In this document: in pieces, positions 32,996 to 64,000 of the stretch
How positions within the stretch are numbered: position 1 is the stretch's first letter
How the letters are laid out: every line of letters starts with the position of its first letter
Sequence record: NC_019517.1
DNA length: 64,000 bases
From: Escherichia phage FV3
Direction: 5' to 3' (one strand)
Translations under genes and position numbers: made by a program
The notes under the pieces: generated by a model
The model's database searches: none
What the model was told of the DNA's origin: nothing
The model's input: only the letters and a program-made list of their open reading frames with translations

Positions 32996-33280
32996 ATGAG
33001 CAATGGTATTAGCAACAATGCTGCAGAGTTTAAAGTGATCTGTAAAGGCACTTATTGGATAGTGAAACAGAAGGTGTACCTATTCGGTTTCATACCGTTT
33101 TGGCAGAGATTTTGCTGGGGAGCTAACGAGCTTAAGAGATACGCCACCAAGGCTATGGCACTTATTGGTATAGCTGAATACATTGCTGCCAGGGACAGAG
33201 AGGGGAAAACTTGTTACTACACTGCTGACGAGATTCGTAACAGTGTTTACGTTCCACAACCGCCCGATGGAGACCGCTGA
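32996..33280 (+). CDS. hypothetical protein (94 aa)
   Basis: track ORF. Confidence 0.4.
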   Translation: MSNGISNNAAEFKVICKGTYWIVKQKVYLFGFIPFWQRFCWGANELKRYATKAMALIGIAEYIAARDREGKTCYYTADEIRNSVYVPQPPDGDR

Positions 33281-33504
33281 TGAAAGTGAAAGTTTTAGAT
33301 TCAAACTTCTATATTGGTCAAGAGCCTTTAGTTGGAAAAGTGTTTACCGCTATCCCTAACGAAGATTATCCTGACCTTTTAAAAATAAAAGGGGAAGATC
33401 TTATTGCCGCTGGCGCGTCTCAGGAATGCTTTGACAGTCAGTGGGCCTACAACTTTGCCCTAGGGGAGGATGTGGAGATAGTGGAGGACGATTATGAAGG
33501 TTAA
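33280..33504 (+). CDS. small acidic protein, paralog family A
   Basis: MKVKVLDSN...GEDLIAAGA...VEIVEDDYEG; net charge about -11 in 74 aa. Confidence 0.5.
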   Translation: MKVKVLDSNFYIGQEPLVGKVFTAIPNEDYPDLLKIKGEDLIAAGASQECFDSQWAYNFALGEDVEIVEDDYEG

Positions 33505-33748
33505 AATTCTTGACTCTAACGTCTACTTGGGACAATCATTCCTGAAGGGAAAGGTAGTACCTGCTGTATACTTCGAAGGGTTGCCGTGGGATGATCCTGT
33601 GCGGCAAAATCACAGCTATGTAGGCCACAATGTGGTGTTCATTTTGGGATCAGACCTGATCGCGGCTGGTGCTCCGGAATATTATTTCGGAGAGGACTCG
33701 TATTATGCCTTTGGGGTAGGGTCAGATGCAGATATTTTAGAGCCGTGA
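33494..33748 (+). CDS. small acidic protein, paralog family A
   Basis: MKVKILDSN...GSDLIAAGA; adjacent tandem paralog. Confidence 0.5.
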   Translation: MKVKILDSNVYLGQSFLKGKVVPAVYFEGLPWDDPVRQNHSYVGHNVVFILGSDLIAAGAPEYYFGEDSYYAFGVGSDADILEP

Positions 33749-34159
33749 TTGGGGACTGTTGTGAAAAATAAACTGTTCAAAGTTACAATGAAAATTCGCG
33801 GAGCTTGGAGCGTAAAGCAAGGGCGTATCCCGGAATTTGAGAAAGACTTCTACGTAGTCTCCACCTCTGAAGAGGCTGCATGCTGGCAGGCTGGCTATGC
33901 CTATGCAAGAACTTGGTACGAAGGGTACCAAACTGGGGGCTATGACGGAGAAATTGTCAGTAAGGGTGTGGAAGAAATTAATGTGTTGACAAGTGAAAAA
34001 GTTTTTGTTATAGTGCATCCTGATTCCAGAGTGAAGCATTACTGGAATGCCAGAACAAAAACCTGGACACCATTTGCAGATTCTGCTACACCACTTTTAA
34101 ACCAGAAAGCTCTTGACTCTGCCCCGAGCTACGGGGTTGTTGAAGAAAAAATAAGCTGA
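33749..34159 (+). CDS. hypothetical protein, paralog family B
   Basis: shares VHPDSRVKHYWNARTKTWTP-like block with ORF 35963. Confidence 0.45.
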   Translation: MGTVVKNKLFKVTMKIRGAWSVKQGRIPEFEKDFYVVSTSEEAACWQAGYAYARTWYEGYQTGGYDGEIVSKGVEEINVLTSEKVFVIVHPDSRVKHYWNARTKTWTPFADSATPLLNQKALDSAPSYGVVEEKIS

Positions 34160-34176
34160 AATAGTGGGGTACTTAC

Positions 34177-34467
34177 ATGATGGATTTAGTTTTGGATACT
34201 GATAACACCGAATCGTTTAAAAAAGATGGTGTAATAAGCATGGACCAATCCTGCCATGCCAAGATTGACTCAAAATGGACCTACAAGTTTGACGGTGAGA
34301 TCTTCGCAAATGATGAGAAGGTTGTGGATGCTGTAGCCATTTTAAACGCTTTAGGGTATGACCCTGTGAACTCATTGATCAAGGATCCTGTTGAGTTTGC
34401 AGAGTATGTTCGTAAAATGGCAGATCTTGCAGTAGATATTTTAAAAACTATCGACGACAAGCTGTAA
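34177..34467 (+). CDS. hypothetical protein (96 aa)
   Basis: track ORF. Confidence 0.4.
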   Translation: MMDLVLDTDNTESFKKDGVISMDQSCHAKIDSKWTYKFDGEIFANDEKVVDAVAILNALGYDPVNSLIKDPVEFAEYVRKMADLAVDILKTIDDKL

Positions 34468-34473
34468 AAACTG

Positions 34474-34502
34474 TTGACACAACATTTGATCTTTAGTATC
34501 AT
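34474..34502 (+). promoter_or_regulatory. sigma70-like promoter TTGACA-N17-TATCAT
   Basis: consensus hexamers upstream of the HPF homolog. Confidence 0.55.
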
Positions 34503-34549
34503 TATTTCCAAAGAGGGTTTGGTTCCCTCTTCTTTAAAAGGAGCACGTT

Positions 34550-34867
34550 ATGCAGATTGAAATTACTGGCAACGTAGAGATCACTGAAGGTATGGTGTCT
34601 TTCATTTCCCACAAAATGTCCAAACTGGAGCGTTTGCACCCATCTGCCAACTATGCACGTGTGAGTGTAAAAGTTGAAAATGATCACCAGGAAGTTATGG
34701 CTTTTATTTTTGACAATTCTGGGAAAGAAGTTATCGCCAAAGCTAAAGGTAGCGATGCTTACGAGGCAACTGACCGTATGGTGGATGTTGCAGCACGCCA
34801 GTTGGCTAAATGCGGTGGAAAGAAAGGTAAGGGAAAAGGTAAAGTAAAGATTGACTTTTGGGATTGA
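34550..34867 (+). CDS. hpf: ribosome hibernation promoting factor / RaiA-family homolog
   Basis: MQIEITGNVEIT...KLE...VKVE...AKAKGSDAYEATDRMVDVAARQLAK aligns block-by-block with E. coli HPF; Lys/Gly-rich tail. Confidence 0.8.
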   Translation: MQIEITGNVEITEGMVSFISHKMSKLERLHPSANYARVSVKVENDHQEVMAFIFDNSGKEVIAKAKGSDAYEATDRMVDVAARQLAKCGGKKGKGKGKVKIDFWD

Positions 34868-35004
34868 GGTGCTACAATGAGTATGATTAAGAAATTAGTC
34901 CCAAATGTAGAGATTGCATGCTTTGAAATTATGTTTGCAATCGCAGTTGTAGTTAATGTGTTAGGTTACGACTATTAATATCAAATAATTGAGGAGACCT
35001 CTAA

Positions 35005-35274
35005 ATGAAAATTAAATTATTCAAAACTGAGCTGGCAGACAAAAACTGCGGACTGGTTGAAGGCATGATCGTTGAAGCACAACCAGTGGACTACATGAAG
35101 GTGGTTCGTGATGCTCTGGGTGAAGGTTTTGATCTGATGGAGCCAGCTCTGCGAGAAGATGTCATCGAGATGGCTAAAAAGCACACACCTGAAGGCTTGG
35201 TAGTGTTTGTTGCTCCAGGTAACGGAGAAGAGTTGATTGTAACTCCGGATGTGTATGAGGTTGTAGAGGAGTAA
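35005..35274 (+). CDS. small acidic protein, paralog family A-like
   Basis: MKIKLF...YEVVEE. Confidence 0.45.
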   Translation: MKIKLFKTELADKNCGLVEGMIVEAQPVDYMKVVRDALGEGFDLMEPALREDVIEMAKKHTPEGLVVFVAPGNGEELIVTPDVYEVVEE

Positions 35275-35362
35275 TCTTGGGTTAGCCATACTTCCTCGAC
35301 AAGAAAGGTTTGTAATTATTTGTGGGAAAGGAATCCCCATCTCTTACCAGAGGTGATACTGT

Positions 35363-35626
35363 ATGATTGTTTATTTTAAAACTTCAGGTGGATACCCTGA
35401 TTCTCAAAGCTTGATTGGAAAAACGTGCACAGCATACTCGCCTCTTGATGATGAGGTAAGTGATACCCTACGAAATATGTATCGGATTGATCCACAAGAA
35501 GCTTTTGATCAGAACCTTGTATTTGTCAAGGGCTCAGACATGAAGTCTTTGGGGGCATTTCCTGAAGCAGATGATAATGCTGTTTATTCGTTTATGACCC
35601 CTTTTGAAGCTATGGTTGTTGGGTGA
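35363..35626 (+). CDS. small acidic protein, paralog family A-like
   Basis: VFVKGSDMKSLGA block. Confidence 0.45.
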   Translation: MIVYFKTSGGYPDSQSLIGKTCTAYSPLDDEVSDTLRNMYRIDPQEAFDQNLVFVKGSDMKSLGAFPEADDNAVYSFMTPFEAMVVG

Positions 35627-35963
35627 GAATATGAAAGTACGCTTTATTGGTGAAACAATTCCTGTGCATCTCCGGTCGCCTGAGGATTCTGCAGATCTTG
35701 CATCTCAAAAGGCCAGAGGGTATGATAAGAAAGTAATCTCAACCGATGTAGAGCTTGAGGCTACCAGTCTGCCTGACCCTGCTGCATTCTTTAATCATTA
35801 TGGATACTATTTCAGCAATCTGATGAATATCGGTGAGCTTGTGTTTATTAGTGGTGGAGAAATAGTTAGCAAGCTTGGCGGCGATCCGGATGTCTTTCAT
35901 GAAACCTGCCCTTTTGCATTTGTGGTAGGTTCAGATGTGGAAGTTATTGAGGAGGTGCGGTAA
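35604..35963 (+). CDS. small acidic protein, paralog family A-like
   Basis: MKVRFIG...VEVIEEVR. Confidence 0.45.
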   Translation: MKLWLLGENMKVRFIGETIPVHLRSPEDSADLASQKARGYDKKVISTDVELEATSLPDPAAFFNHYGYYFSNLMNIGELVFISGGEIVSKLGGDPDVFHETCPFAFVVGSDVEVIEEVR

Positions 35964-36358
35964 TGGTAAGTCTATACCGTGTTGAGTATAGCTCAGATAC
36001 TGTATACAACGTAAGAAGCAAAGATCGTAGCGACAGAGTGCAAGAAATGTATGTTCTTGCCGACAGTCCGTTATCTGCAGCGTTTAAGGCAGGAGCTCTT
36101 GCATCTCGTTGGAAATTCGAGGGTGGATCTTTCTATGAAGAAACTCTTGAAGATTCTGTTGTTATTTCTTCTGTAGAGGTTTCAACTGACTACGAAGGGA
36201 AAAAGTTCGTAATGCGGCACCCACACAGCAACATTGCGTACTACTGGGATGTTCTGAACAACGAGTGGACTCCAGATCTTCAGAAGGCCACTGTTCTGAC
36301 TCCGTTCTTGGCAGATAAGTTCCCACCAGAAGGTAATTTATCTGCACTGTTTCAGTAA
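35963..36358 (+). CDS. hypothetical protein, paralog family B
   Basis: VMRHPHSNIAYYWDVLNNEWTP block shared with ORF 33749. Confidence 0.45.
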   Translation: MVSLYRVEYSSDTVYNVRSKDRSDRVQEMYVLADSPLSAAFKAGALASRWKFEGGSFYEETLEDSVVISSVEVSTDYEGKKFVMRHPHSNIAYYWDVLNNEWTPDLQKATVLTPFLADKFPPEGNLSALFQ

Positions 36359-36376
36359 TTTTATTCTACACAGGTG

Positions 36377-36405
36377 TTGACAACACCAACCCTGTGTGCA
36401 ATAAT
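36377..36405 (+). promoter_or_regulatory. sigma70-like promoter TTGACA-N17-AATAAT
   Basis: consensus hexamers. Confidence 0.5.
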
Positions 36406-36434
36406 ACCTTCATCTTAACAAGACAGGAGACTGA

Positions 36435-36695
36435 TTGATGAAGATTAAATTGAAAAACCTTGAAATGGCAGAGGTTCAGGAAGGTGTTGATTTCCGCTCT
36501 AAAGATGGCGACATCTTAGAGGCGAATATCCCGACCTATAAGTTGATTAAAGGTTTTGGCAACGTTCCTGAAGAGGATATTACAGACATTCTTATGATGT
36601 TGATCCTTGACGGGACCGTGTTTGTAGGTGAAGGTGAGAACGCTATTGCAATCCCAGGCCATTTTTATGAAGTAGTTGACGAAGAGGTGCTGTAA
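36435..36695 (+). CDS. small acidic protein, paralog family A-like
   Basis: MMKIKLKN...FYEVVDEEVL. Confidence 0.45.
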   Translation: MMKIKLKNLEMAEVQEGVDFRSKDGDILEANIPTYKLIKGFGNVPEEDITDILMMLILDGTVFVGEGENAIAIPGHFYEVVDEEVL

Positions 36696-37046
36696 ATGAA
36701 AGTAGAGATCACAGGTTTTGATATGAATGTGGTTCCGGAAGATATTTTAGCTAAACTTCCGGAAGGTTTTGGTAACGGTGTTGTGGTGGATGCTGTCCCT
36801 CCTACCAAAGACATTCTGCTGCAGTATGGTGTAGCAGAGGAAGATGTCGATAAAGTTCTTACAATGATGGCAATAGACCGTGTTGTCGTTGTTAAAGGTC
36901 TTGAAGGTTTTGATGACGATCCTCTGATTATTCGTGGTGATGACTATCGCATCATCGACAACGAAGGCCAAGAGTTCTACGAACCTTCTGCTGAAGATGT
37001 TCTTAACTTACTACTGGAAGCAGGCACCGAAGAGGAGGAAGAATAA
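36696..37046 (+). CDS. small acidic protein, paralog family A-like
   Basis: MKVEITG...poly-Glu C-terminus. Confidence 0.45.
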   Translation: MKVEITGFDMNVVPEDILAKLPEGFGNGVVVDAVPPTKDILLQYGVAEEDVDKVLTMMAIDRVVVVKGLEGFDDDPLIIRGDDYRIIDNEGQEFYEPSAEDVLNLLLEAGTEEEEE

Positions 37047-37375
37047 TGAAAATTGATCCGTTACTAAAGGCTCGTGCAGAAAAAGCATACACTATCAAGC
37101 TGACCTCTCTGGTCCCTACTTGTCATCCGGATGTAGGTTGGCCTGAAGGCCTGGTAGAGGGGACTGTAACAGCTGCATACCTTCCTAACATCAAATACCT
37201 CATGGAGATCTTGGAGATGGATGAGGAAACGGCAGAACAGTTCCAGTTAGACATGAAGCAAAGTGGGACTCTGGTTATTCACGGGTGGTATAATACTAAA
37301 GATGCAGAAGATCCCCTGGTAACTTCTAATCTGGCATATGAAATCTTAGGACCTTTGAACTTGGGGGAAGACTAA
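37046..37375 (+). CDS. small acidic protein (109 aa)
   Basis: track ORF; ATGA overlaps. Confidence 0.4.
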   Translation: MKIDPLLKARAEKAYTIKLTSLVPTCHPDVGWPEGLVEGTVTAAYLPNIKYLMEILEMDEETAEQFQLDMKQSGTLVIHGWYNTKDAEDPLVTSNLAYEILGPLNLGED

Positions 37376-37662
37376 TGAAAGGTTTGGTTAAGATCAAGAT
37401 TAAAGACACCAAGGGAGAACTCAGCCATTTTGGAATTAACGATGGTGACGAGCTGATCGCCCACCTGCCTACCAAGGAAGTTGTAAGCAAAGCTGTTGCC
37501 GGAGAAGAAGATGCAATGCAGGCTGCAGGTGTGGATGAAAACTATGTAGCAATGTGTATGTGCCGAGATCAGGTTGTTCTGTATAAAGCGTATCGACCAA
37601 ATGGAGCACCTGAGTGGCTTGTTTTCCGACCCGAAGGGTATGAAATTTTAGAGACGCTATGA
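37375..37662 (+). CDS. small acidic protein (95 aa)
   Basis: track ORF. Confidence 0.4.
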   Translation: MKGLVKIKIKDTKGELSHFGINDGDELIAHLPTKEVVSKAVAGEEDAMQAAGVDENYVAMCMCRDQVVLYKAYRPNGAPEWLVFRPEGYEILETL

Positions 37663-37751
37663 TAAATCTTGCCAAGGTTGCAACGGCACTGTTAATTATT
37701 TGCTGGATAGTGACCTTGGCACTATGTCTTGTATTTCATTAAGGGGGCTGT

Positions 37752-38015
37752 ATGAACATCCTGATGTGGGTTGTGGCAGTGGCGTTTGTTGCGTGCCTCT
37801 CTTGTTGGGTTGCTGTGAGGATTTCTATAGCCACTCTTCGGAAATTAGGGTTCTCAGAGTGGGATATTAATATCCTCTCTTTTCGCAATGAGACGATCTC
37901 AGCTGCCTTACTGTGCAAGAAGTTCAAGTGGAAACCTTGGGAGGTCATGAGCTATCTAAGAACAGGGGATATTCCTGAGAGATTTAAAAAAGTTCTTGAC
38001 GGCGAAGATAAATGA
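37752..38015 (+). CDS. small membrane protein (87 aa)
   Basis: N-terminal TM helix. Confidence 0.4.
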   Translation: MNILMWVVAVAFVACLSCWVAVRISIATLRKLGFSEWDINILSFRNETISAALLCKKFKWKPWEVMSYLRTGDIPERFKKVLDGEDK

Positions 38016-38170: not shown

Positions 38171-38422
38171 ATGACGAAGATTGACTTAAATGCTGGAGAC
38201 CATGTTGTTGTCAAATGCATCGGAGATTATCTTGGATTCACAATCGGCAATACTTACGAGGCGGTAGTGGCGAAGGTTTACCATGATAAAGTCCTCAGCC
38301 TTGTATTTGACTGTGATGATGACGGAGATGACCGCTACGTCTGTGAGGTGCTGGCTCGTGACGATAGTGAAGACCAGAAATTCCTGGTTACCGAACTGAA
38401 CGGTATTTTTGTAGAACGTTAA
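38171..38422 (+). CDS. hypothetical acidic protein (83 aa)
   Basis: internal ATG of track ORF 38105..38422. Confidence 0.4.
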   Translation: MTKIDLNAGDHVVVKCIGDYLGFTIGNTYEAVVAKVYHDKVLSLVFDCDDDGDDRYVCEVLARDDSEDQKFLVTELNGIFVER

Positions 38423-44913: not shown

Positions 44914-45147
44914 TCAACACTTTTCAAAAAATTTTTCTGCCGTGATATTCTTCCCGGTAGGGTTCGCTACTTTCAAAATTTTATCATGCACTGGACGCCC
45001 AAAAGAATAAGCGCCGTACACAGTGCACCAATAATCGCCGTCAGGCTGTACTATTACCGCCGCATAGGGTACGCCTTTTTCGTTTTTGCTGACAAAATAG
45101 ATCACATTGCCATTAATAGCCTCAGCGCGTTTAATTTGTTCCATCAT
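44914..45147 (-). CDS. hypothetical protein (77 aa)
   Basis: track ORF. Confidence 0.4.
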   Translation of the reverse strand: MMEQIKRAEAINGNVIYFVSKNEKGVPYAAVIVQPDGDYWCTVYGAYSFGRPVHDKILKVANPTGKNITAEKFFEKC

Positions 45148-45213
45148 GATGATTCACCTATCTTTATTTTTTTTTCATAGTTTCAGGAGGGGCCTTTTTC
45201 GGCCCCGCCAGGC

Positions 45214-45513
45214 TTATTTATTGATGGCGTGCAGCGGGAAAGGTACGCCAGGTTGATAGATAACTTTTACAACCTCATCGGGGCAAAAGAAATTACAAAA
45301 TTCACCCCGATAAGCTTCATCTTCTTTTAATTCTTCATCAACATACTTAAAAAAGTAGTCGATGCTTGGATAATCCTGGCCGGGATTATAGTCGACCATT
45401 GTCAGGACTAGTTCAAGATCGTTGCGCAGGATATGCATACCCGCTTTTAAGTATTTTGCTTCCATTTCTACTACATCGCCAACGGTAACAATAGCCATGA
45501 TTTTAACTCCCAT
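45214..45513 (-). CDS. hypothetical protein (99 aa)
   Basis: track ORF. Confidence 0.4.
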   Translation of the reverse strand: MGVKIMAIVTVGDVVEMEAKYLKAGMHILRNDLELVLTMVDYNPGQDYPSIDYFFKYVDEELKEDEAYRGEFCNFFCPDEVVKVIYQPGVPFPLHAINK

Positions 45514-47205: not shown

Positions 47206-47236
47206 TAAGGCGGCAAATATGCCGCCTGTTACCTGA

Positions 47237-47617
47237 TTAAAAATTATCGCCGTAAATCTTTCCGCTTTCTACCCATACCACCACGCGAGGCATACTATCC
47301 CACACGTCTTGTTTTAGATTGAGCGCGTGCAATTCTTCGGTGGTGCTCATACCGGGCACGGGCTGATTGTATACTGCAAAACGACCACCCGCATAATCAT
47401 AGGCCAGGGTTAAATCACACTGGATCATCTTTTTGATCATGGCATTAAGCATGGCGTTAGCCGCATACTGATCACGTTTTAAAGGCAACTCTTTGATTAG
47501 TTTGCGATAGTTTTCGATATGGTCGCACACTGTTTCACGCGGAAGATCTTTCATATCTTCACGGAATGTAACCAGGTTAAACATAACGGTGTCAATAGCC
47601 TTGGTAGTGTTTTTCAT
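47237..47617 (-). CDS. hypothetical protein (126 aa)
   Basis: preceded by promoter TTGCAA-N16-TATATT and 5'-UTR hairpin. Confidence 0.45.
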   Translation of the reverse strand: MKNTTKAIDTVMFNLVTFREDMKDLPRETVCDHIENYRKLIKELPLKRDQYAANAMLNAMIKKMIQCDLTLAYDYAGGRFAVYNQPVPGMSTTEELHALNLKQDVWDSMPRVVVWVESGKIYGDNF

Positions 47618-47705
47618 GATTTTATCCTCTTTGTTTTGTGTGGGGCAAGACGTTTGCCCCTTGAGTTTTAATATAGCAGGTTTTTAGATTATTGCAACAC
47701 TTTAT

Positions 47706-56373: not shown

Positions 56374-57600
56374 TTAAAAAGGAATGTCATCATCAAAGGC
56401 GTATTGTGCCGGATTCTGATCCATCGGGTCATCTCCGTCATCATCTACAGGAGGGGCGTCTACAGTGTTTTGCTGTGGAGTGGCTTCCTGTTTGGCAGCT
56501 TGAGGTTCTTGATGCTCAGTAGTCCCCGCACCATTCTTGATCCAATCGTACAACGGTTCAGCAAGATTAGTCAAGACATCTTTTGCCTCTGCAGTAATTG
56601 CTGCTGCAAAATCATCAACTTTCGTTTTCTTGTCAATACGGCGACAAGCGTTCAATACCGCGTTACCAACACTGGCACCTACTTCATCTTCAGTCCGGTT
56701 GGTGGCTTGAGCGTACTCTTTCTTAAGCTCGATGGTGACCACGTGCAATGTTTTAGCCACATCTAAAGGGCTGTCAATCTTAAACCCGCGATCCAGAATG
56801 ATCTGCAACGCATTGATACTGTGCCCTGTCTCTACACCAATGGGGTCGTAAGAGGATTTACGCTTACCACCAGAACCTTGTGTACCGTTCTCTGCTTTAG
56901 GCGGGTAGGCCTTGAAGCCGCTGATAATATTCCCGGTGTCTTTGTCAACAATAGCTGCAACACGACCGCCAACCACCAGGTCTTTAAGCTGCTCATCGGA
57001 GACAACCATAGCACCTTCGCCAATCTTGTGGTCATTGACAGTAACCACGTTACCAACAATCTGAGTCACATCACCATAGATGCGTAAAACGTCCTGATTG
57101 GCATTCTGCTGAGGTTTCTGCTTTTGGCCTTGTGATTGTGTGCCTTGTTGCTGTTTTTGTTGCTGTGGAGCTGCTGGAGCCTCTCCTGCCCCCAGCTTAA
57201 CCATTTTAGCCAATGAGCCTTTGTAGTAGGTCTTACCGTTATGCTCATTTGCCTTTAAAGGGATATTTACGATCCATCCTGGCGTTACTGTTTCCCACTT
57301 GTCATCAATTTTAACAGAGACGGAATCTTGATGACCAGGTTTGAGCAATTTATCACCCATGCTGATCCAAACTTCTTCACCACCTTGAAGTAGGTTATCA
57401 GAAGAATCCAGTTCAGAAATCAGTAAAGAGATGGTGTGACTGGACTCGATTTTCTTACCTTGCCACACAGTGGTTTTAATACCTGTTGTAGGATCAGCAC
57501 CTTTGATAGGTTTGATGCTGACACGTTTAATCATGCCGTGAGCCAGTAAAACAGTTTCACGCGGATTCATCGGGTTGGCAAATTGTTGAATAACGCTCAT
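56374..57600 (-). CDS. putative ssDNA-binding protein with host-SSB-like C-terminal tail
   Basis: ends ...DDDGDDPMDQNPAQYAFDDDIPF (E. coli SSB tip is DDDIPF); Gln-rich linker; start chosen at ATG overlapping upstream stop (TAATG). Confidence 0.45.
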   Translation of the reverse strand: MSVIQQFANPMNPRETVLLAHGMIKRVSIKPIKGADPTTGIKTTVWQGKKIESSHTISLLISELDSSDNLLQGGEEVWISMGDKLLKPGHQDSVSVKIDDKWETVTPGWIVNIPLKANEHNGKTYYKGSLAKMVKLGAGEAPAAPQQQKQQQGTQSQGQKQKPQQNANQDVLRIYGDVTQIVGNVVTVNDHKIGEGAMVVSDEQLKDLVVGGRVAAIVDKDTGNIISGFKAYPPKAENGTQGSGGKRKSSYDPIGVETGHSINALQIILDRGFKIDSPLDVAKTLHVVTIELKKEYAQATNRTEDEVGASVGNAVLNACRRIDKKTKVDDFAAAITAEAKDVLTNLAEPLYDWIKNGAGTTEHQEPQAAKQEATPQQNTVDAPPVDDDGDDPMDQNPAQYAFDDDIPF

Positions 57601-58047: not shown

Positions 58048-58293
58048 TTAGCCAATTACTTCGAAAGTACCCCAACTCCCGTTCAGCAGGCAGGTGATCG
58101 GATCACCATCATCATCAATTATTTCAAAGTTTTCAACATCCAGAATATGGTCATCGAACACAATACTTTCGTCACCACCGCCAGAAACAACAGTGTATTC
58201 CTTACCTTGAGTCAAGTTTTGACACCCTTTGCCACCAAAACCCACTTCAACACAACGCACTTTCTGTCCTGCACGAGCAACTACTTCAGCCAT
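58048..58293 (-). CDS. hypothetical protein (81 aa)
   Basis: track ORF. Confidence 0.4.
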   Translation of the reverse strand: MAEVVARAGQKVRCVEVGFGGKGCQNLTQGKEYTVVSGGGDESIVFDDHILDVENFEIIDDDGDPITCLLNGSWGTFEVIG

Positions 58294-58631: not shown

Positions 58632-59007
58632 TCATCAGATCTGCCATAGCGTCACCCACGAATAGGACAACCACGTCGTTGACAGCGTCAGCATCATCTT
58701 TATTAATGTTGCTGAATTTGGGGCACACTGCAATGACCATATATACCCCGTTGCCCAACTGAACAGTGCGTGTAGTGCACATCAGTGTGGTGTTTGTGCC
58801 TTCTTTAAAGGCAAATCCTTGCAGACGTTCTTCCAGAGAGTCGCCTGTTGATTTCAACAAGGCAAGATCGCCCAATGCGTAGGTAGTGTCCTCATAGGTC
58901 AGTCCAGAGGTCAGTGTTGCCTTTCCATCAGAAACTATAATAACCCCATCGGCACCGTCAAGCTCAGAGGCTTCAAAGATATTGATATCCCAAATGTTTT
59001 TCATCAC
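58603..59007 (-). CDS. hypothetical protein (134 aa)
   Basis: track ORF. Confidence 0.4.
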   Translation of the reverse strand: MMKNIWDINIFEASELDGADGVIIVSDGKATLTSGLTYEDTTYALGDLALLKSTGDSLEERLQGFAFKEGTNTTLMCTTRTVQLGNGVYMVIAVCPKFSNINKDDADAVNDVVVLFVGDAMADLMNAGEAANED

Positions 59008-59336
59008 TCTGCCTCATCATCTAAGTAATCATCAAGAGAGGTGAAGATTTCACCGAAGTATTCTAAGATTTCTAGCTCGCGTGTGGTGCAGCAAACATAA
59101 TCTCCCTGGTCGTCCTTGATAGTAGCCTCTTTACCCAGCACATCCACTTCAAATTCGTCGTTCAACAGGACGGCCCCTGTGTAAACTTTGTCAGCTGTGC
59201 AGTCCCGAAAAGCAGAGTCCTTTTCCAGATAGTCTGGCTTAACCTTGGCTTTAATTCGTTGATATTGTTTGGTCATTGCTGTGGTCCCCTTTCGTTTTGA
59301 TAGGGCCATTATATTAGGCCCCATCACTGTTGTCAA
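59004..59336 (-). CDS. hypothetical protein, KDDxG paralog group
   Basis: AFRDCT...KDDQGDYVCCT shared with ORF 59340. Confidence 0.45.
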   Translation of the reverse strand: MTTVMGPNIMALSKRKGTTAMTKQYQRIKAKVKPDYLEKDSAFRDCTADKVYTGAVLLNDEFEVDVLGKEATIKDDQGDYVCCTTRELEILEYFGEIFTSLDDYLDDEAE

Positions 59337-59339
59337 GTA

Positions 59340-59594
59340 TTAATGTTCAGGTTTTACAAAAACTACTTCATTAACAGTGCACCAGACAGAGTCTCCTTCA
59401 TCATCTTTAAAGGTAAGGCACTGGGCTGAGTTTTCCAGCTCATCAATCTCTTCTTGTGATAAAGGGGCCCCTTCTTCCAGAAGGGCTTTTACCAGAGGGT
59501 TCTCACAAAACTCTGCTTCATAAATTGCACCGACTGTGCAATCCTTAAAAGCTCGGTCATTTGCAACGCATTCTGGCTTCAAAGTAATTTTCAT
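59340..59594 (-). CDS. hypothetical protein, KDDxG paralog group
   Basis: AFKDCT...KDDEGDSVWCT. Confidence 0.45.
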   Translation of the reverse strand: MKITLKPECVANDRAFKDCTVGAIYEAEFCENPLVKALLEEGAPLSQEEIDELENSAQCLTFKDDEGDSVWCTVNEVVFVKPEH

Positions 59595-59670
59595 CTTGGC
59601 AGTCTCCTTAGTTATTTAAAAATCAACGCTCTGTTTGTGTGAAGCATCTTATATCCAATCTTACTTCTTG

Positions 59671-60042
59671 TCAATGGCTATTTTCAATCATCCACACAGG
59701 GTCGAGGTAAATTTGTTGGCGTTTTGCCCAATGACAAACTTCATTGTACATCTGAATCTCTTTATCTGTCAATTCACGAATAGGCTCATCTATGCCCTCA
59801 TTTTTGTGGTAATCCCAGTCGGCATCGATTTCCCACAACCATGACTTATGATCTTCACGCTTACGCACACAGAAGTCCCCAGGACGGCCTGCCAGTGCAT
59901 TTAAGAACTCGTTCTCCGCTCGCTCCTGGAGAATACTGAGGAGCAAAACGTTGGAGCACGACCGTAAGATATGCTTCAGCTCACAATCATCAATCTCAAC
60001 TTCAATACGTTGCTTGACTGTGTGGGTACCTTTTACTAACAT
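59671..60042 (-). CDS. hypothetical protein (about 123 aa)
   Basis: internal ATG of track ORF 59671..60069 avoids overlap. Confidence 0.4.
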   Translation of the reverse strand: MLVKGTHTVKQRIEVEIDDCELKHILRSCSNVLLLSILQERAENEFLNALAGRPGDFCVRKREDHKSWLWEIDADWDYHKNEGIDEPIRELTDKEIQMYNEVCHWAKRQQIYLDPVWMIENSH

Positions 60043-60052
60043 TCTGCCTCCT

Positions 60053-60247
60053 CTAGACAAACTCTGCAAGGGTTGTGTTGTTCACTGCACCGCAGTAGAT
60101 GGAATACCCCAACCCATTATGGTGCAGAAACCACGGCACACCTTGGTCATCCTTCACGTATACATCTCCATTTTCCGTAAAGGGCCAATACTCCTCTCCG
60201 ATGGTAAAATACCTACTCATACCTTCAGCCAGATACTTTACTTTCAT
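60053..60247 (-). CDS. hypothetical protein, KDDxG paralog group
   Basis: VKDDQGVPWFLHH. Confidence 0.4.
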   Translation of the reverse strand: MKVKYLAEGMSRYFTIGEEYWPFTENGDVYVKDDQGVPWFLHHNGLGYSIYCGAVNNTTLAEFV

Positions 60248-60471
60248 AGATCCTCTTCAACAGCTACAAACTTGGCAAGTAGGGTGGTTCCATAGATATG
60301 ATACTCACCATTTGCCAGATGGGAGATAAACCAGGCAACACCTTCCTCGTCTTCGATCATATTGTTCCTGCGATCCTTATCGTAGTAAACCTTGTAGACC
60401 TTACCTTCTTCAAAGAATGACAGGTCTGTCATCTTTTCTTCTACAAACGTCGCTTTAACCAAAGTTGTCAT
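60244..60471 (-). CDS. hypothetical protein, KDDxG paralog group
   Basis: EDEEGVAWFISHL. Confidence 0.4.
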   Translation of the reverse strand: MTTLVKATFVEEKMTDLSFFEEGKVYKVYYDKDRRNNMIEDEEGVAWFISHLANGEYHIYGTTLLAKFVAVEEDL

Positions 60472-60752
60472 TGATCTGCCTCCTTCTTGTTGAGCCGGAA
60501 CACTGCAATAATAGCATTTCCAAGATGCAGTGTCAAATCATTTCCCAGATACCATAACATTCCACGGTCATCTTTAATGAAAGGGTAACAATCCGGTGCC
60601 TTCCAGACATTATACACTTTGCCGACCTGAAAGAAATCAGGCCCTGTTGGAATTTTAGTACCTGGCCACACTTGAGACACCTGAACGCACTCTACCTGCA
60701 TAATAACAGGAATAGTCATGGAGGTAAATGTTTTTGTCGGTTCTACTACCAT
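60468..60752 (-). CDS. hypothetical protein, KDDxG paralog group
   Basis: IKDDRGMLWYLGN; start uncertain (track ORF to 60842 would overlap the polymerase exon). Confidence 0.35.
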   Translation of the reverse strand: MVVEPTKTFTSMTIPVIMQVECVQVSQVWPGTKIPTGPDFFQVGKVYNVWKAPDCYPFIKDDRGMLWYLGNDLTLHLGNAIIAVFRLNKKEADQ

Positions 60753-60801
60753 AAAAGTCTCCTCTCTATCTAACAACACTTCCGTGTGTTGATAGTTTAC
60801 A

Positions 60802-61155
60802 TTAGTGACAATCGCCCCAGTTACGACCACACAAGTATTCACCTGTGATCTGGAACGGAACGCCCATCATTTTAGAAGCTTGCCAGAAGCAATGCACCAC
60901 CATTTCGCCCACAGGGCTCCAGATAAGTTCAAGCTTTCCGTCCTCGTTCAAGATAGGATCGTATACCGTATTTCCATCCTTGTCAACCACTTCGTTTCCG
61001 TCCTCATCCTTGCGTGCCTTTTTGTACTTATGACCGTCGAACACATGAAGTTTGGCCTCCTGCTCTGCCTTAAATGCTTCCAGTTCTTCGATTGTGTCGA
61101 AGGTGTACACAGTCTTATACTTCGGTGTGTCAGGTACTTGAAGTTGGTACTCATC
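60802..61155 (-). CDS. DNA polymerase family A, exon 2 (C-terminal)
   Basis: begins DEYQLQ, completing motif C HDE; ends ...QITGEYLCGRNWGDCH like T7 gene 5 ...LDTEGKMGPNWAICH. Confidence 0.7.
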   Translation of the reverse strand, partial: DEYQLQVPDTPKYKTVYTFDTIEELEAFKAEQEAKLHVFDGHKYKKARKDEDGNEVVDKDGNTVYDPILNEDGKLELIWSPVGEMVVHCFWQASKMMGVPFQITGEYLCGRNWGDCH

Positions 61156-61997
61156 CAACAGTTCAGGTAGGTCGTTAAGCTACCCCGCACCATTACGTGC
61201 ATAGCCATACAGTTTCCCGTATGGATCGGACTATCTCACTGCCTTGTTACCAAGGCACCTCTCATTTCGACCGCACTTGCTGGCCTACTCTACTCGCTTC
61301 TTCACACCAAACTATGTTGGAGCTATGCTTTCGATAGTCTCTGAACGTTACTACCAGGTGTAGTTTTTAGAGATATGTTTCCACTGTCTTCTTTGCTTTA
61401 TGGCCCTGACCGTTTCATAAGGATACCCAAGATCCCTAATCTCACATTGTCGTAGACCGCTCTGTAACAGTTCGCAAATCTCAATTACCTCATCCTCGGT
61501 CAGCACAGCATTGGCATTATACTCGCCGACTGGCCTTACTCTGAGGTCATTATCGTAGGCGTGTTTGATATTTCCACCAGGGGTGGTCCACTCCAGGTTC
61601 CAGTATGCATTGTTGTACTTATTTCCATCCTTATGGTTCACCCATGTGAGCCTTTCAGGATCAGGGTTTGATACAAAGCATTCGGCAACTAAGTGGTGGA
61701 CACCTTTTGTGTACTGCTTCCCCTCTATGAACATGGTCACGCAAAGGTAACCTCGACCATTATCAAAACAAAACATTGTTGTATGATCACGTTTCGATAA
61801 AGGTATTGTTCCATCATCAAACACGGTATACCCGTGATAATCAGCTGATCTAGCCATTTTAACTACACCCCTTTAGTCTTCGCTGCGGATTAGCATATTG
61901 AGCTTTTACCATGTTTAGGTGTAAAAGTCAACTTAGCCTTCCCGTCAATTAAAGAGGTTTTCGACGTGCATCACTGCACGAAGCCACAATGTTATTT
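61156..61997 (-). mobile_element. group I intron in DNA polymerase gene carrying an HNH homing endonuclease
   Basis: on minus strand: P-like AATTGACGGGAAGG, Q AATCCGCAGC, R GTTCAGAGACTA, S GAGATAGTCC; P1 exon CCAT with GTGG; terminal G before exon 2. Confidence 0.7.
61351..61857 (-). CDS. intron-encoded HNH homing endonuclease
   Basis: HNH block WVNHKDGNKYNNAYWNLEW; paralogous to the nrdD intron endonuclease. Confidence 0.85.
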   Translation of the reverse strand: MARSADYHGYTVFDDGTIPLSKRDHTTMFCFDNGRGYLCVTMFIEGKQYTKGVHHLVAECFVSNPDPERLTWVNHKDGNKYNNAYWNLEWTTPGGNIKHAYDNDLRVRPVGEYNANAVLTEDEVIEICELLQSGLRQCEIRDLGYPYETVRAIKQRRQWKHISKNYTW

Positions 61998-64000
61998 ATG
62001 GTAATAAATAATACGACGAACACCTTCATCGTACCACCCACGCTTCACCATTTGGTGGTGCATGAGTATCCCAACTAAATCACACAACGATGCACCGCCA
62101 TTTTGTTGGTATGCATTAAGTAAAGAGTGTTTAGATCGGGTCCAGATGGCATGACCATCAAAAGAGTAGATAAACTTCTTACCAGTTGCTTCCCAGAATT
62201 TCTCCAGATCCTCTTTACGCCCCTTAAGACCGGGGTTGGCATCCCAAAGCGCATCGATTACCCTTTGCCCCAACTCTGGAGAGATATCCAGCATGTCTGC
62301 AACTTTATCTTTTTGTGCCCCGTACATAACCCCATACGTGATAGGTTTACCGTCGTTACGAGACACCTCTCTGCCTGCTACTTTTGTATATGCCTCAGCA
62401 TTGTTTTGGTGTGCGTCCCCGTTACTTACAACATCATAATACAGGCCGTTGTCAAACTCAAAGGCACCCCAAGCCCCGATAAGCTGCTCTAAGTTAGACC
62501 CGTCAATACCGATCTCAAAGTATCCTGGAGGAACACCCCACAGACTACGCATCTCTTTACCCATAACCACTTTAGGAGATGGTTTAGGCATGTTTGCACA
62601 AATACTGTGTTTCTGTCTGGAAGTGTTTGTTAATCCAGAACTTTTAGCAGGAAGCTTATGGTCAATCTTCAAACGTGGGTGATTAAGAAGACCAGTATCA
62701 ACCTTATCCTCCTTGATTGGATCAAGTACCGATCTACGGTTTCGCAATGATAACCACAAAACGATATCTTTAGCCATCTCTCCGTTCAATTTTTCAAGAT
62801 TAGGGCATAGGTGCCCAAACGTGTCTTTCAGTTGTGGAGAGGTAATAAGTGCTCTGGCCTTTCTACGTATCTTCCCAAACACTTCCTTTTTAACCCTTTC
62901 TGAGTTAGGGAAGCTTCGGAACTTATGCACAGTTGTCTGAAACTTGGCATCAGTTTTGTTCCAGAAGTTGATAATTAGGTCACAATACTCTGACTCCAAA
63001 AGCTCGTCCATATATGCATATACTCGTGCATCAACATCTGCATCAGGTAAAGCTTTCTTCTTGCTGTCTTTAGTTACATCCTTAGTTCTCCACATTGTTG
63101 GGAGCCAACCAGCACTGATCAGGTATCTCTTAATATCGTCCTGGTTGCTGATCTTCATAGGTATCTTGCAGTCAGGCATCCGCTTCTGCTGTAGATCACT
63201 TATTGCCTGGTCCATTAGCTCTTTAGGTAAAGGATGTGGTGTAGAGGTCCCTTTAATATACCCCCTTAAGAAATCAGCCATCTTATCGGGATCTTTGCAG
63301 CCCATCTCTTCACACCATTTTATCCCCATTTTGCTGACATCCCCTGTGGAGGTAAATGCTCGCTTAGGAGGAGCTTTGAACTCTAAAGCGCTCATGTCCA
63401 CAGGATAGCCAAGCTTGTCTTTTAACCATTTCCAACCATTATTGGAGATTGTCCCATCCTGGTTAAACGGCTTTTCAGGGAACTTAGGCCGCTGAGACAT
63501 TGATAACTCTTTTAAAGGAAGTTGTGGTTCAACACGATCAGCGATCTCTTTCATCCACGCATCGCAGCGGTCACGTAAAGCAATAGCCCCATCTATGTCG
63601 AAATACACACCCTGTCGAGCCTGCAGCTCCATCAGGAAATGCTGCAGCATGCCTCGGCGTAATGCATTCTTCCAGGTAATCTTCTTGAATCCTTTAGGCT
63701 TCTCTTTGGCAGGGTCATACATAAAGTTCTGCATGTCAGATTTGCCGTAGAATACACCTTTTGATTCCGCTACCAACTCTTTCCAGAGCAACTCCTGGAT
63801 GATAACGTCCTCGAACACACGATCCACATATTTCCACAGCGGAAGCTCACGCCAGTCATCGATTTGAACTTTCTGGTTACCAAGGGCGTAGCCCCATGCC
63901 ATAAGGCCATGAGGCCCAACAGGCTGCATTTTCTTGGTAACTGGATTAAATACTGCGTCCGGACAACCTTTTGGCAAAGGTCGGTCAGGCCACAAGATTC
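61998..64000 (-). CDS. DNA polymerase family A, exon 1 (partial; continues beyond window)
   Basis: motif B GKPITYGVMYGAQKDKVADML; FDGHAIWTRSKHSLLNAYQQNGGASLCD aligns with T7 DNAP LDGRKVHVRSPHAALNTLLQSAGALICK; ends ...RRIIYYH at motif C. Confidence 0.7.

What the first reader, a model, noticed from the sequence alone, without database searches (positions are those of the whole stretch)
59004..60842. Second small-protein paralog cluster sharing a KDDxG-W block
Five adjacent minus-strand genes carry a conserved (K/E)DD(Q/E/R)G...W(F/Y/C) block (KDDQGDYVCCT, KDDEGDSVWCT, KDDQGVPWFLHH, EDEEGVAWFISHL, KDDRGMLWYLGN), implying local duplication and divergence next to the polymerase gene.
Basis: seen in the sequence. 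Interest (0 to 1): 0.4.

Follow-up and report, generated by a model that had tools for sequence, protein, structure and literature searches.

The report
Paralogous small beta-barrel phage genes
Just downstream of the DNA polymerase gene of an rV5-like E. coli phage lie two sets (2 + 3 genes) of tiny, acidic SH3-like beta-barrel proteins made by local gene duplication. Three of them are predicted to share the fold of Gp54 of phage Bas11, a protein sensed by the CapRel immune system, but what they do is still unknown.

Summary
The window is an rV5-like coliphage (Vequintavirus). The five quoted peptides are all present, and the pattern occurs 5 times against 0.003 expected.

The five genes are not one proven family, and they are not strictly adjacent:
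- g1 and g2 are clear paralogs (family A).
- g3, g4 and g5 are translationally coupled tandem paralogs (family B).
- An unrelated 123-aa gene lies between the two sets.
- The A-B link is twilight: HHalign 30-48%, though far above permutation nulls.

What the proteins are:
- g2 models, less reliably, as a generic SH3-like barrel.
- In both models the (K/E)DDxG...W block is the beta3-beta4 hairpin.
- Family B, plus a sixth gene (58048-58293) and probably 38171-38422(+), belongs to a widespread phage domain. That domain also occurs as tandem repeats and borders Pfam DUF7244/DUF6501.

All five genes are under purifying selection, and several sit behind conserved sigma70-like promoters. Copy number of family B varies between lineages (3, 5, at least 6). 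Function is unknown; protein-binding accessory modules are the likeliest reading. This is an ordinary but better-annotated finding.

The parts
60468..60752 (-). g5, 94 aa, family B paralog. The block KDDRGMLWY is at nt 60549-60575. It has an N-terminal extension of about 38 residues.
   Evidence: RBS GAGAGGAGA upstream of the ATG. Annotated at this start in PQ014731 and ime. Own family is phrog_12922. Independent S2 profile E 3.8e-6; HHalign 93%. dN/dS 0.01.
60244..60471 (-). g4, 75 aa, family B paralog. The block EDEEGVAWF is at nt 60328-60354. Its start overlaps the g5 stop by 4 nt (ATGA).
60053..60247 (-). g3, 64 aa, family B paralog. The block KDDQGVPWF is at nt 60128-60154. Its start overlaps the g4 stop by 4 nt.
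   Evidence: phmmer to g4 6e-4 to 9e-4. S2 profile E 4.2e-8; HHalign 96%. dN/dS 0.10-0.11.
59671..60042 (-). gX, 123 aa. An unrelated intervening gene, not part of either family.
   Evidence: phrog_6273 only. No hit from the A, B or S profiles.
59340..59594 (-). g2, 84 aa, family A paralog. The block KDDEGDSVWC is at nt 59379-59408. A helical insert lies between beta2 and beta3.
59004..59276 (-). g1, 90 aa, family A paralog. The block KDDQGDYVCC is at nt 59088-59117. It has an acidic C-terminal tail.
   Evidence: RBS AAAGGGGA and ATG at 59276. Annotated at this start in relatives. phmmer to g2 1.8e-9. dN/dS 0.07-0.20.
58048..58293 (-). g0, 81 aa.
   Evidence: S2 profile E 4.8e-7; HHalign 93-95%. 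Weak Pfam DUF7244 hit, 15.6 bits. dN/dS 0.16-0.18.
38171..38422 (+). h7, 83 aa. A probable further member on the other strand (VVVKCIGDYLGFTIGNTYEAV...DCDDDGDDRYVC).
   Evidence: HHalign vs S2 49-53%, E 1.4e-4 to 1.7e-4. It ranks 5th of 333 window segments.
59308..59336 (-). Perfect sigma70-type promoter (TTGACA-17-TATAAT) between g2 and g1.
   Evidence: 12 of 12 hexamer matches. The hexamers are conserved in three relatives while the spacer varies.
59646..59674 (-). Promoter-like site (TTGACA-17-TAAGAT) upstream of g2.
   Evidence: 10 of 12 matches. Conserved in L001, L010 and L011.
60508..60536 (-). Promoter-like site (TTGACA-17-TATTAT with a TG extension) inside the 3' end of g5, 37 nt upstream of g4.
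   Evidence: 11 of 12 matches. Conserved in L001, L010 and L011. Because it lies in coding sequence, the conservation may partly reflect coding constraint.

Best explanation
WHAT IT IS (shown). The region holds two small arrays of real, selectively constrained genes in an rV5-like coliphage. Each gene encodes one tiny (64-94 aa) beta-barrel domain, and most of these proteins are acidic. Family A (g1, g2) and family B (g5-g4-g3, translationally coupled) each arose by tandem duplication.

Family B, together with g0 (58048-58293), belongs to a widespread phage domain with the consensus vKCv..yFTvGKeYeV....iiDDeGd..W. This domain occurs as stand-alone proteins, as proteins with 2-5 tandem repeats, and fused to DUF3310. 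Its predicted fold is the six-stranded SH3-like barrel solved for Gp54 of phage Bas11.

The shared (K/E)DDxG...W/C block is the end of beta3, a five-residue turn and beta4. The Gly closes the turn.

HOW IT WORKS (inferred). That the aromatic residue of the block packs into the barrel core is inferred by analogy with Gp54 W43. That would make the hairpin the part of the scaffold least free to change.

The proteins are probably made early from sigma70-type promoters. They most likely act as stand-alone protein-binding modules that engage host proteins (host takeover or counter-defence) or phage proteins. Paralogs keep the scaffold while their surfaces have diverged, so each may have its own partner.

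Family A is probably a more diverged SH3-like relative with a helical insert.
For: Identity of the phage: 98% identical to PQ014731, and 111 Vequintavirus records cover at least 80% of the region.

Real genes: ribosome-binding sites and dN/dS 0.00-0.25 against two relatives with dS 0.06-1.1.

Paralogy.

Fold:
- g4 model pLDDT 92, six strands with a long beta1-beta2 loop.
- 9AXB is described as a six-stranded barrel with one prominent beta1-beta2 loop and a rare topology (PMC11578894).
- 9AXB was released in 2024, and no templates were used for the model.

Superfamily:
- The B profile finds 17 proteins at E <= 1e-3 among 1.84 billion, including multi-repeat proteins.
- A profile built only from those repeats recovers g4, g3, g0 and g5 at E 2e-8 to 4e-6.
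- P0095 passes Pfam DUF6501 and nearly passes DUF7244.
- BFVD holds dozens of 60-80 aa phage proteins with TM 0.6-0.8 to the g4 model.

Hairpin position of the block: DSSP strings of both models.

F, G, G and W columns of family B align in register with F21, G24, G40 and W43 of Gp54.

Promoters: 18 promoter-like sites against 7.5 +/- 2.4 expected, including a perfect consensus. The hexamers are conserved in relatives.

Acidity: pI 4.1-4.8, except g5 at 6.5.

Dynamic copy number: family B has 3 copies here, 5 in L013 and at least 6 in L014.

Only core and turn residues are invariant among B paralogs (F, G, Y, D, G, W, A, F).

Gp54 is non-essential, non-toxic and bound directly by an immune sensor.
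Against: - No functional datum exists for any of these genes. Pfam, NCBIfam and PADLOC give nothing for g1-g5.
- Sequence similarity to Gp54 is not significant: HHalign 0.5% with a single sequence and 11.7% with a Gp54 family profile.
- The A-B link is below the usual HHalign confidence level. g2 and g1 rank only 7th and 14th of 333 window segments against the superfamily profile.
- Early expression is inferred from promoter consensus alone.
- g5 is as constrained as the polymerase (dN/dS 0.01), which fits a housekeeping role as well as an arms-race role.
Confidence: 0.6

Rival explanations
1. Families A and B are independent lineages. The shared KDDxG-aromatic block would then be convergence on a generic tight beta-hairpin of small SH3-like barrels, not inheritance from one duplicated gene.
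For: - HMMER finds no A-B hit, even with profiles.
- HHalign with shallow profiles aligns only 9-10 columns, with probability 3-3.5%.
- The g2 model hits generic SH3 domains rather than 9AXB.
- Acid-x-x-Gly distal hairpins are common in SH3 domains (own knowledge; for example the distal loop of alpha-spectrin SH3).
- Gp54 itself has YHSG instead of DDxG.
Against: - With richer profiles the A-B alignment extends over 41 columns, from beta1 through F..G..Y to the block. It scores 23.6 against permuted 9.1 +/- 1.9, maximum 16.2, 0 of 299.
- A vs the independent S2 profile reaches 48%.
- The two families are neighbours in the same gene array.
Confidence: 0.3
2. The proteins are accessory factors of the phage replisome that bind the polymerase, helicase-primase or the SSB-like protein encoded next to them.
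For: - They sit between the polymerase (60802-64000) and an SSB-like protein ending in DDDIPF.
- g5 has dN/dS 0.01, like the polymerase.
- g1 carries an acidic C-terminal tail.
- SH3-like domains occur in RecD.
Against: - The same polymerase neighbourhood in sister genera (Seunavirus, Henunavirus, Certrevirus, a Klebsiella phage) and in ICP1 lacks any detectable homolog.
- Copy number varies between lineages.
- Truncated or frameshifted copies exist in deposited genomes.
- The one structurally related protein studied is dispensable.
Confidence: 0.12
3. They are acidic decoys or DNA mimics that block DNA-binding host enzymes such as restriction enzymes or RecBCD, in the way Ocr and Gp5.9 do.
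For: - Net charge is -4 to -12 at pH 7 for g0-g4.
- Promoter-like sites suggest early expression.
Against: - The BASEL paper reports that Vequintavirinae are exceptionally susceptible to restriction-modification systems (PMC8594841).
- A 65-90 aa globular barrel is too small for an extended DNA-like charge array (inference).
- g5 is not acidic.
Confidence: 0.08
4. They are cell-wall-binding SH3 auxiliaries of the lysis system, as proposed for the stand-alone DUF7244 SH3 protein of T1-like phages.
For: - The superfamily profile borders DUF7244.
- It also hits the small gene just upstream of the Bas11 holin (bas11_0041, E 2.3e-3).
- That gene's position matches the stand-alone SH3 gene discussed in PMC13164509.
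Against: - None of the genes lies near lysis genes.
- No hydrophobic N-terminal signal is visible in any sequence.
- They sit behind sigma70-type promoters in the replication/early region.
- The lysis role is itself only a hypothesis in that paper.
Confidence: 0.03

Closest known systems
Gp54 of Escherichia phage Bas11 (JohannLBurckhardt), PDB 9AXB; direct trigger of the CapRelSJ46 fused toxin-antitoxin (Zhang et al., Nature 2024, PMC11578894)
   Same: - A stand-alone protein of about 65-75 aa, encoded among small accessory genes.
- F, G, G and W positions in register with the invariant columns of family B.
- Mildly acidic.
- Function unknown.
   Different: - No significant sequence similarity (13% identity; HHalign at most 11.7%).
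- Gp54 has YHSG where family B has DDxG.
- Gp54 homologs are found in Drexlerviridae siphoviruses, in 215 records, not in Vequintavirus.
- Gp54 is a single gene, not a tandem array.
- Whether any rV5-type protein is sensed by a CapRel homolog is untested.
Pfam DUF7244 (PF23896) and DUF6501 (PF20111). DUF7244 is placed in the SH3 clan by PMC13164509 and includes the stand-alone SH3 of T1-like phages.
   Same: - A small phage-borne SH3-like domain.
- Proteins retrieved by the family B profile hit these models: P0095 scores 41.4 bits on DUF6501 (cut-off 23.8) and 26.1 bits on DUF7244 (cut-off 27). P0089 and P0090 hit DUF7244 at E 2e-4.
- g0 hits DUF7244 weakly.
   Different: - None of g1-g5 reaches any score against either model at E <= 1.
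- The T1-like members sit beside the lysis cassette, whereas these genes sit beside the replication genes.
Multi-repeat phage proteins carrying the same domain (P0088-P0098; phrog_3523-like), some fused to DUF3310
   Same: - The same sequence signature (vKCv..yFTvGKeYeV...iiDDeGd) at whole-library significance.
- They are encoded in phage regions of small genes, with an adjacent paralog.
   Different: In those proteins the copies are fused in one polypeptide of 180-570 aa. Here each copy is a separate, translationally coupled gene.
Canonical SH3 and SH3-like small barrels (eukaryotic SH3, retroviral integrase C-terminal domain, KOW, RecD SH3)
   Same: - A barrel of five core strands.
- The block occupies the hairpin that corresponds to the distal loop.
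   Different: - Family B has a sixth strand.
- Family A has a two-helix insert of about 25 residues.
- There is no sequence relationship and no evidence of proline-peptide binding.

Membership tests
Gp54(Bas11)-like six-stranded small beta-barrel (PDB 9AXB) | A single-domain protein of about 65-75 aa that folds as a six-stranded barrel with one prominent beta1-beta2 loop. | tested here: met
Gp54(Bas11)-like six-stranded small beta-barrel (PDB 9AXB) | Detectable sequence homology to Gp54 and its Drexlerviridae homologs. | tested here: not met
   HHalign of Gp54 alone vs family B gives 0.5%. A nine-member Gp54 family profile vs B gives 11.7%, E 2.5e-3, 53 columns in register. A PDB sequence search with the B and superfamily profiles does not find 9AXB.
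Gp54(Bas11)-like six-stranded small beta-barrel (PDB 9AXB) | Direct binding and activation of CapRelSJ46. | not testable with these tools
   Needs co-expression toxicity or binding assays. Even close Gp54 homologs (Bas5, Bas8, Bas10, SECphi27) do not trigger CapRelSJ46.
Pfam DUF7244 (PF23896) / DUF6501 (PF20111) | A score at or above the curated gathering threshold. | tested here: not met
   g1-g5 have no hit at E <= 1. g0 scores 15.6 bits against a cut-off of 27. The only link is transitive, through P0095, P0089 and P0090.
Phage 'FTvGKeY...DDxG' domain superfamily (defined here by profile S2, built from multi-repeat proteins) | A significant match to a profile built without any window sequence. 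| tested here: met
   g4 1.7e-8, g3 4.2e-8, g0 4.8e-7 and g5 3.8e-6 in a database of 2807 segments. HHalign 93-97%.
Phage 'FTvGKeY...DDxG' domain superfamily (defined here by profile S2, built from multi-repeat proteins) | The same criterion applied to family A (g1, g2). | tested here: inconclusive
   HMMER E > 5. HHalign A2 vs S2 gives 48%, E 1.8e-4, 34 columns. 0 of 299 permuted controls reach the score. As single sequences, g2 and g1 rank 7th and 14th of 333 window segments.
SH3-like small beta-barrel fold | A five-strand barrel core whose beta3-beta4 hairpin corresponds to the distal loop. | tested here: inconclusive
   Similarity is significant within A and within B. Between A and B it is seen only at HHalign 30%.
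DxDxDG calcium-binding loop | Asp at positions 1, 3 and 5 and Gly at position 6 of the loop. | tested here: not met
   By inspection, IKDDQG, FKDDEG, VKDDQG, IEDEEG and IKDDRG lack Asp at positions 1 and 5. Only h7 (DCDDDG) fits.

The most novel reading that the evidence does not exclude
The Gp54-type six-stranded barrel may not be a rare oddity. It could be the scaffold of a large, unrecognised superfamily of phage 'interaction cassettes' that diversify by tandem duplication, as separate genes here and as fused repeats elsewhere. Each paralog would bind, and either neutralise or be sensed by, a different host immunity or housekeeping protein. Under this reading the conserved FTvGKxY strand and the DDxG..W hairpin correspond to the Gp54 surface that CapRel grips (G24, I25, S39, L41, W43). 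That surface would then be a molecular pattern that bacterial sensors could exploit across unrelated phage families.
Probability: 0.15. Interest if true: 0.7.

Novelty: new member of a known kind. Interest (0 to 1): 0.33.

Why it matters
Every one of these genes is deposited as 'hypothetical protein' in well over a hundred rV5-like genomes.

Placing three to four of them in the fold class of Gp54(Bas11) gives that orphan immune trigger a much wider family. The family includes tandem-gene and tandem-repeat forms.

It also yields concrete candidates for testing in BASEL Vequintavirinae. Two questions follow: do these proteins activate CapRel-type sensors, and do they counteract defence systems?

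It also shows that the eye-catching shared motif is mainly a structural hairpin. By itself it is weak evidence for a common function.

Tried and rejected
- **Curated libraries.** Pfam, NCBIfam and PADLOC scans of all members gave nothing above threshold.
- **Word-indexed protein searches.** The three searches returned only Vequintavirus-size contigs, so they added little diversity.
- **Synteny in relatives.** I looked for homologs in the polymerase neighbourhoods of Seunavirus, Henunavirus, Certrevirus, a Klebsiella phage, ICP1 and Vibrio phage F97. None was found.
- **tblastn of a divergent g1-like protein.** It found only Vequintavirus records.
- **PDB sequence searches.** The B, A and superfamily profiles gave no hit below E 0.2.
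- **A repeated DNA element as the cause of the motif.** Rejected, because codons differ and the only DNA repeat is a 46-nt remnant between g1 and g2.
- **A DxDxDG calcium loop.** Rejected by inspection.
- **Non-coding or spurious ORFs.** Rejected, given dN/dS far below 1 and the ribosome-binding sites.
- **Nucleic-acid binding.** Judged unlikely from pI 4.1-4.8.
- **Literature searches.** Searches on rV5/Vequintavirus early genes, DUF3310 and DUF6501 gave no functional data.
Full report
**Context.** The 4.5 kb around the finding is 98% identical to Escherichia phage VB-EcoM-WM and 90-95% identical to about a hundred other rV5-like phages (Vequintavirus). 111 of 119 matching records cover at least 80% of it. 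Every gene in the stretch is deposited as 'hypothetical protein'. The genes lie on the minus strand directly downstream of the DNA polymerase. That polymerase is interrupted here by a group I intron-like element carrying an HNH endonuclease gene.

**The observation.** All five quoted peptides are present. Residue shuffles give 0.003 matches on average. The pentapeptide core alone occurs 7 times against 0.30 expected. The pattern was defined after seeing the data, and paralogy means the five occurrences are at most two independent events. Even so, it is not chance. Codon usage in the block differs between genes, and the only DNA-level repeat is a 46-nt, 72% remnant between the N-terminal parts of g1 and g2. 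Conservation is therefore at the protein level.

Three details need correction.
- An unrelated 123-aa gene (59671-60042) separates g2 from g3.
- g1 starts at 59276 and g5 at 60752. Both starts have ribosome-binding sites and agree with the annotation of relatives.
- The TTG taken as the start of g1 is the -35 hexamer of a perfect TTGACA-17-TATAAT promoter.

**Are they real genes?** Yes. Against phages ime and WalterGehring, dN/dS is:
- 0.01 for g5
- 0-0.06 for g2
- 0.07-0.20 for g1
- 0.10-0.11 for g3
- 0.13-0.25 for g4
- 0.16-0.18 for g0

Synonymous divergence is 0.06-1.1. For comparison, dN/dS for the polymerase is 0.01.

**One family or two?**
- In a six-frame database of the window, g1 and g2 find each other at E 1e-9 and 1e-7. 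g3, g4 and g5 find each other at 2e-4 to 3e-2. No member of one set finds a member of the other.
- PHROG cross-hits show the same split.
- With orthologs added, HHalign gives 97% for g1-g2, 82% for g4-g5, 46% for g3-g4 and 7% for g3-g5. It gives 3.5% for A against B, aligning only the 9-column block.
- Family B aligns over its full length, with invariant F, G, Y, D, G, W, A and F columns. Its three genes overlap by ATGA, which is typical of a translationally coupled tandem array.

A divergent Vequintavirus-like lineage supplied more diverse sequences. These came from a 136.8-kb contig of GCA_012894635.1 (L013) and a metagenome contig (L014). With them, A against B rises to 29.6% (E 5.7e-4). 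The alignment now covers 41 columns, in register from beta1 through F..G..Y to the block. A against an independent superfamily profile reaches 48%. Neither score is reached by any of 299 column-permuted controls: 23.6 against 9.1 +/- 1.9, and 25.6 against 8.8 +/- 1.9.

Against an empirical null of 333 real window segments, g2 and g1 rank only 7th and 14th. I conclude there are two solid paralog families. The deeper link between them is probable but unproven.

**What the domain is.** A profile of family B searched against 1.84 billion representative proteins found 17 hits at E <= 1e-3. Apart from orthologs, most are proteins of 180-570 aa containing 2-5 tandem copies of the same unit, with consensus vKCv..yFTvGKeYeV....iiDDeGd. 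One is fused to DUF3310. Three hits were set aside as unrelated repetitive or propeller-like proteins.

A profile built only from those repeats, with no window sequence, recovers g4, g3, g0 (58048-58293) and g5 at E 2e-8 to 4e-6. It marks 38171-38422(+) as a probable further member.

One repeat protein, P0095, passes the Pfam DUF6501 threshold and almost passes DUF7244. g0 hits DUF7244 weakly. g1-g5 hit neither. DUF7244 is assigned to the SH3 clan and was recently described as a 'standalone SH3' beside the lysis cassette of T1-like phages (PMC13164509). The contig encoding P0088 is phage-like. It carries a second four-repeat paralog next door and a DUF3310 protein with an N-terminal copy of the domain.

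The paper describes Gp54 as a six-stranded barrel of rare topology whose nearest neighbours are SH3 domains. It is a non-essential, non-toxic 66-aa protein of unknown function. It binds the antitoxin domain of CapRelSJ46 directly and activates it (PMC11578894).

I recovered the Gp54 sequence from MZ501085, and the residue numbers match the paper. Sequence similarity to family B is not significant. However, a nine-member Gp54 family profile aligns over 53 columns in register, at 11.7%. F21, G24, G40 and W43 fall on invariant columns of family B. Where family B has DDxG, Gp54 has YHSG.

Foldseek against BFVD finds dozens of 60-80 aa uncharacterised proteins with TM 0.6-0.8. They come from Drexlerviridae, other Vequintavirinae, phAPEC8 and others, and several phage genomes contribute more than one hit.

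**The block.** In the g4 model, IEDEEGVAWF spans the end of beta3 (36-40), a five-residue turn (41-45) and beta4 (46-51). In the g2 model, FKDDEGDSVWC spans the end of a strand (59-63), a turn (64-68) and the next strand (69-73). The block is therefore the hairpin that corresponds to the SH3 distal loop. The aromatic residue aligns with Gp54 W43. Across the wider family only G-x-x-W is kept, so the acidic pair is a sub-family trait. This explains why the block is the most visible shared feature. It also means the block alone says little about function.

**Expression and dynamics.** The 4.6-kb region has 18 sigma70-like sites against 7.5 +/- 2.4 in shuffles. They include the perfect consensus before g1, a 10/12 site before g2 and an 11/12 extended -10 site before g4. 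The hexamers are conserved in three relatives while the spacers vary. The rV5 paper also reports consensus host-type promoters throughout the genome (PMC3606486).

The proteins are acidic (pI 4.1-4.8), except g5 at 6.5.

Both families are confined to Vequintavirus and the divergent sister lineage. They are absent from the same neighbourhood in sister genera and in ICP1. Family B has 3 copies here, 5 in L013 and at least 6 in L014, while family A stays at 2. Truncated, frameshifted, fused and internally duplicated variants occur in public data.

**Most likely mechanism.** The following are shown: small single-domain barrels, tandem duplication, purifying selection, promoter consensus, and fold identity with Gp54. 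The following are inferred: early expression, and action as stand-alone protein-binding modules whose paralogs kept the scaffold but diverged on their surfaces.

The single studied relative is dispensable and is recognised by an immune sensor. Its authors suggest it may inhibit another defence system. A host-interaction or counter-defence role is therefore the best guess, at roughly 40%. A replisome-accessory role is the main functional rival. DNA mimicry and a lysis role are less likely.

**Verdict.** The thing itself is a new set of members of a known kind of small phage SH3-like barrel. Interest is modest, and comes mainly from the link to Gp54 and CapRel.

Noticed in passing
window 60802-64000 (-), intron-like element about 61206-62007: The DNA polymerase gene is split. 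An Rfam group I intron match (RF00028, 30.4 bits, E 7.5e-5, below the gathering score of 50) encloses an HNH endonuclease ORF (61351-61857). A 118-aa ORF (60802-61158) matches the C-terminal part of a DNA-polymerase PHROG. The WalterGehring (Bas51) record already annotates the polymerase as a two-piece join.
   Followed up: partly
window 56374-57600 (-): A protein of about 408 aa downstream of the cluster ends in ...AFDDDIPF, the C-terminal tip motif of E. coli SSB (own knowledge). It has no Pfam hit. It may be an SSB-like protein that borrows the host SSB interaction tail.
   Followed up: no
window 33280-37662 (+): A separate run of small paralogous genes (MKVKVLDSN..., MKVKILDSN..., MKIKLFK..., with ...GFDDDPLII.GDDYRIIDNEG-type C-termini). 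In the divergent lineage, a gene of this kind sits between the gX and g2 orthologs (L013 6771-7043).
   Followed up: no
window 38171-38422 (+): An 83-aa ORF with an RBS. Its sequence (VVVKCIGDYLGFTIGNTYEAV...DCDDDGDDRYVC) looks like a further copy of the same beta-barrel domain on the opposite strand. HHalign vs the superfamily profile gives 49-53%.
   Followed up: partly
orthologs of g5 (P0033, P0034): Some phages carry an in-frame 11-residue tandem duplication (KAPDCHPFIKE|KAPNCYPFIKDD) immediately before the conserved block of g5.
   Followed up: no
orthologs of g2, g0, g4, g5, g1 in public data (P0069-P0075, P0085, P0086, P0036, P0051, P0064): Frameshifted or truncated copies occur, and there is one fusion of g1 to the downstream 133-aa gene. 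Some are in deposited phage genomes (vB_Eco_Alma, JLBYU08). They could be real decay or assembly errors.
   Followed up: no
one search hit list (MG0656xx records): Sixteen records named 'Campylobacter phage', with host given as Campylobacter jejuni, are about 92% identical to this E. coli Vequintavirus region. This suggests mislabelled or contaminating phages in that data set.
   Followed up: no
L013 4203-4998 (GCA_012894635.1 contig): In the divergent lineage, a 200-aa Ead/Ea22-like gene and a 63-aa gene are inserted between the g5 and g4 orthologs. This breaks the tandem array.
   Followed up: no
L009 (Bas11, MZ501085): 37578-37943(-), 45147-45338(+), 33759-33929(+), 47216-47653(+): Besides gp54, Bas11 encodes four other small ORFs that match the superfamily profile (E 2e-5 to 9e-3 in a genome-size database). 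One of them is the gene just upstream of the holin.
   Followed up: partly
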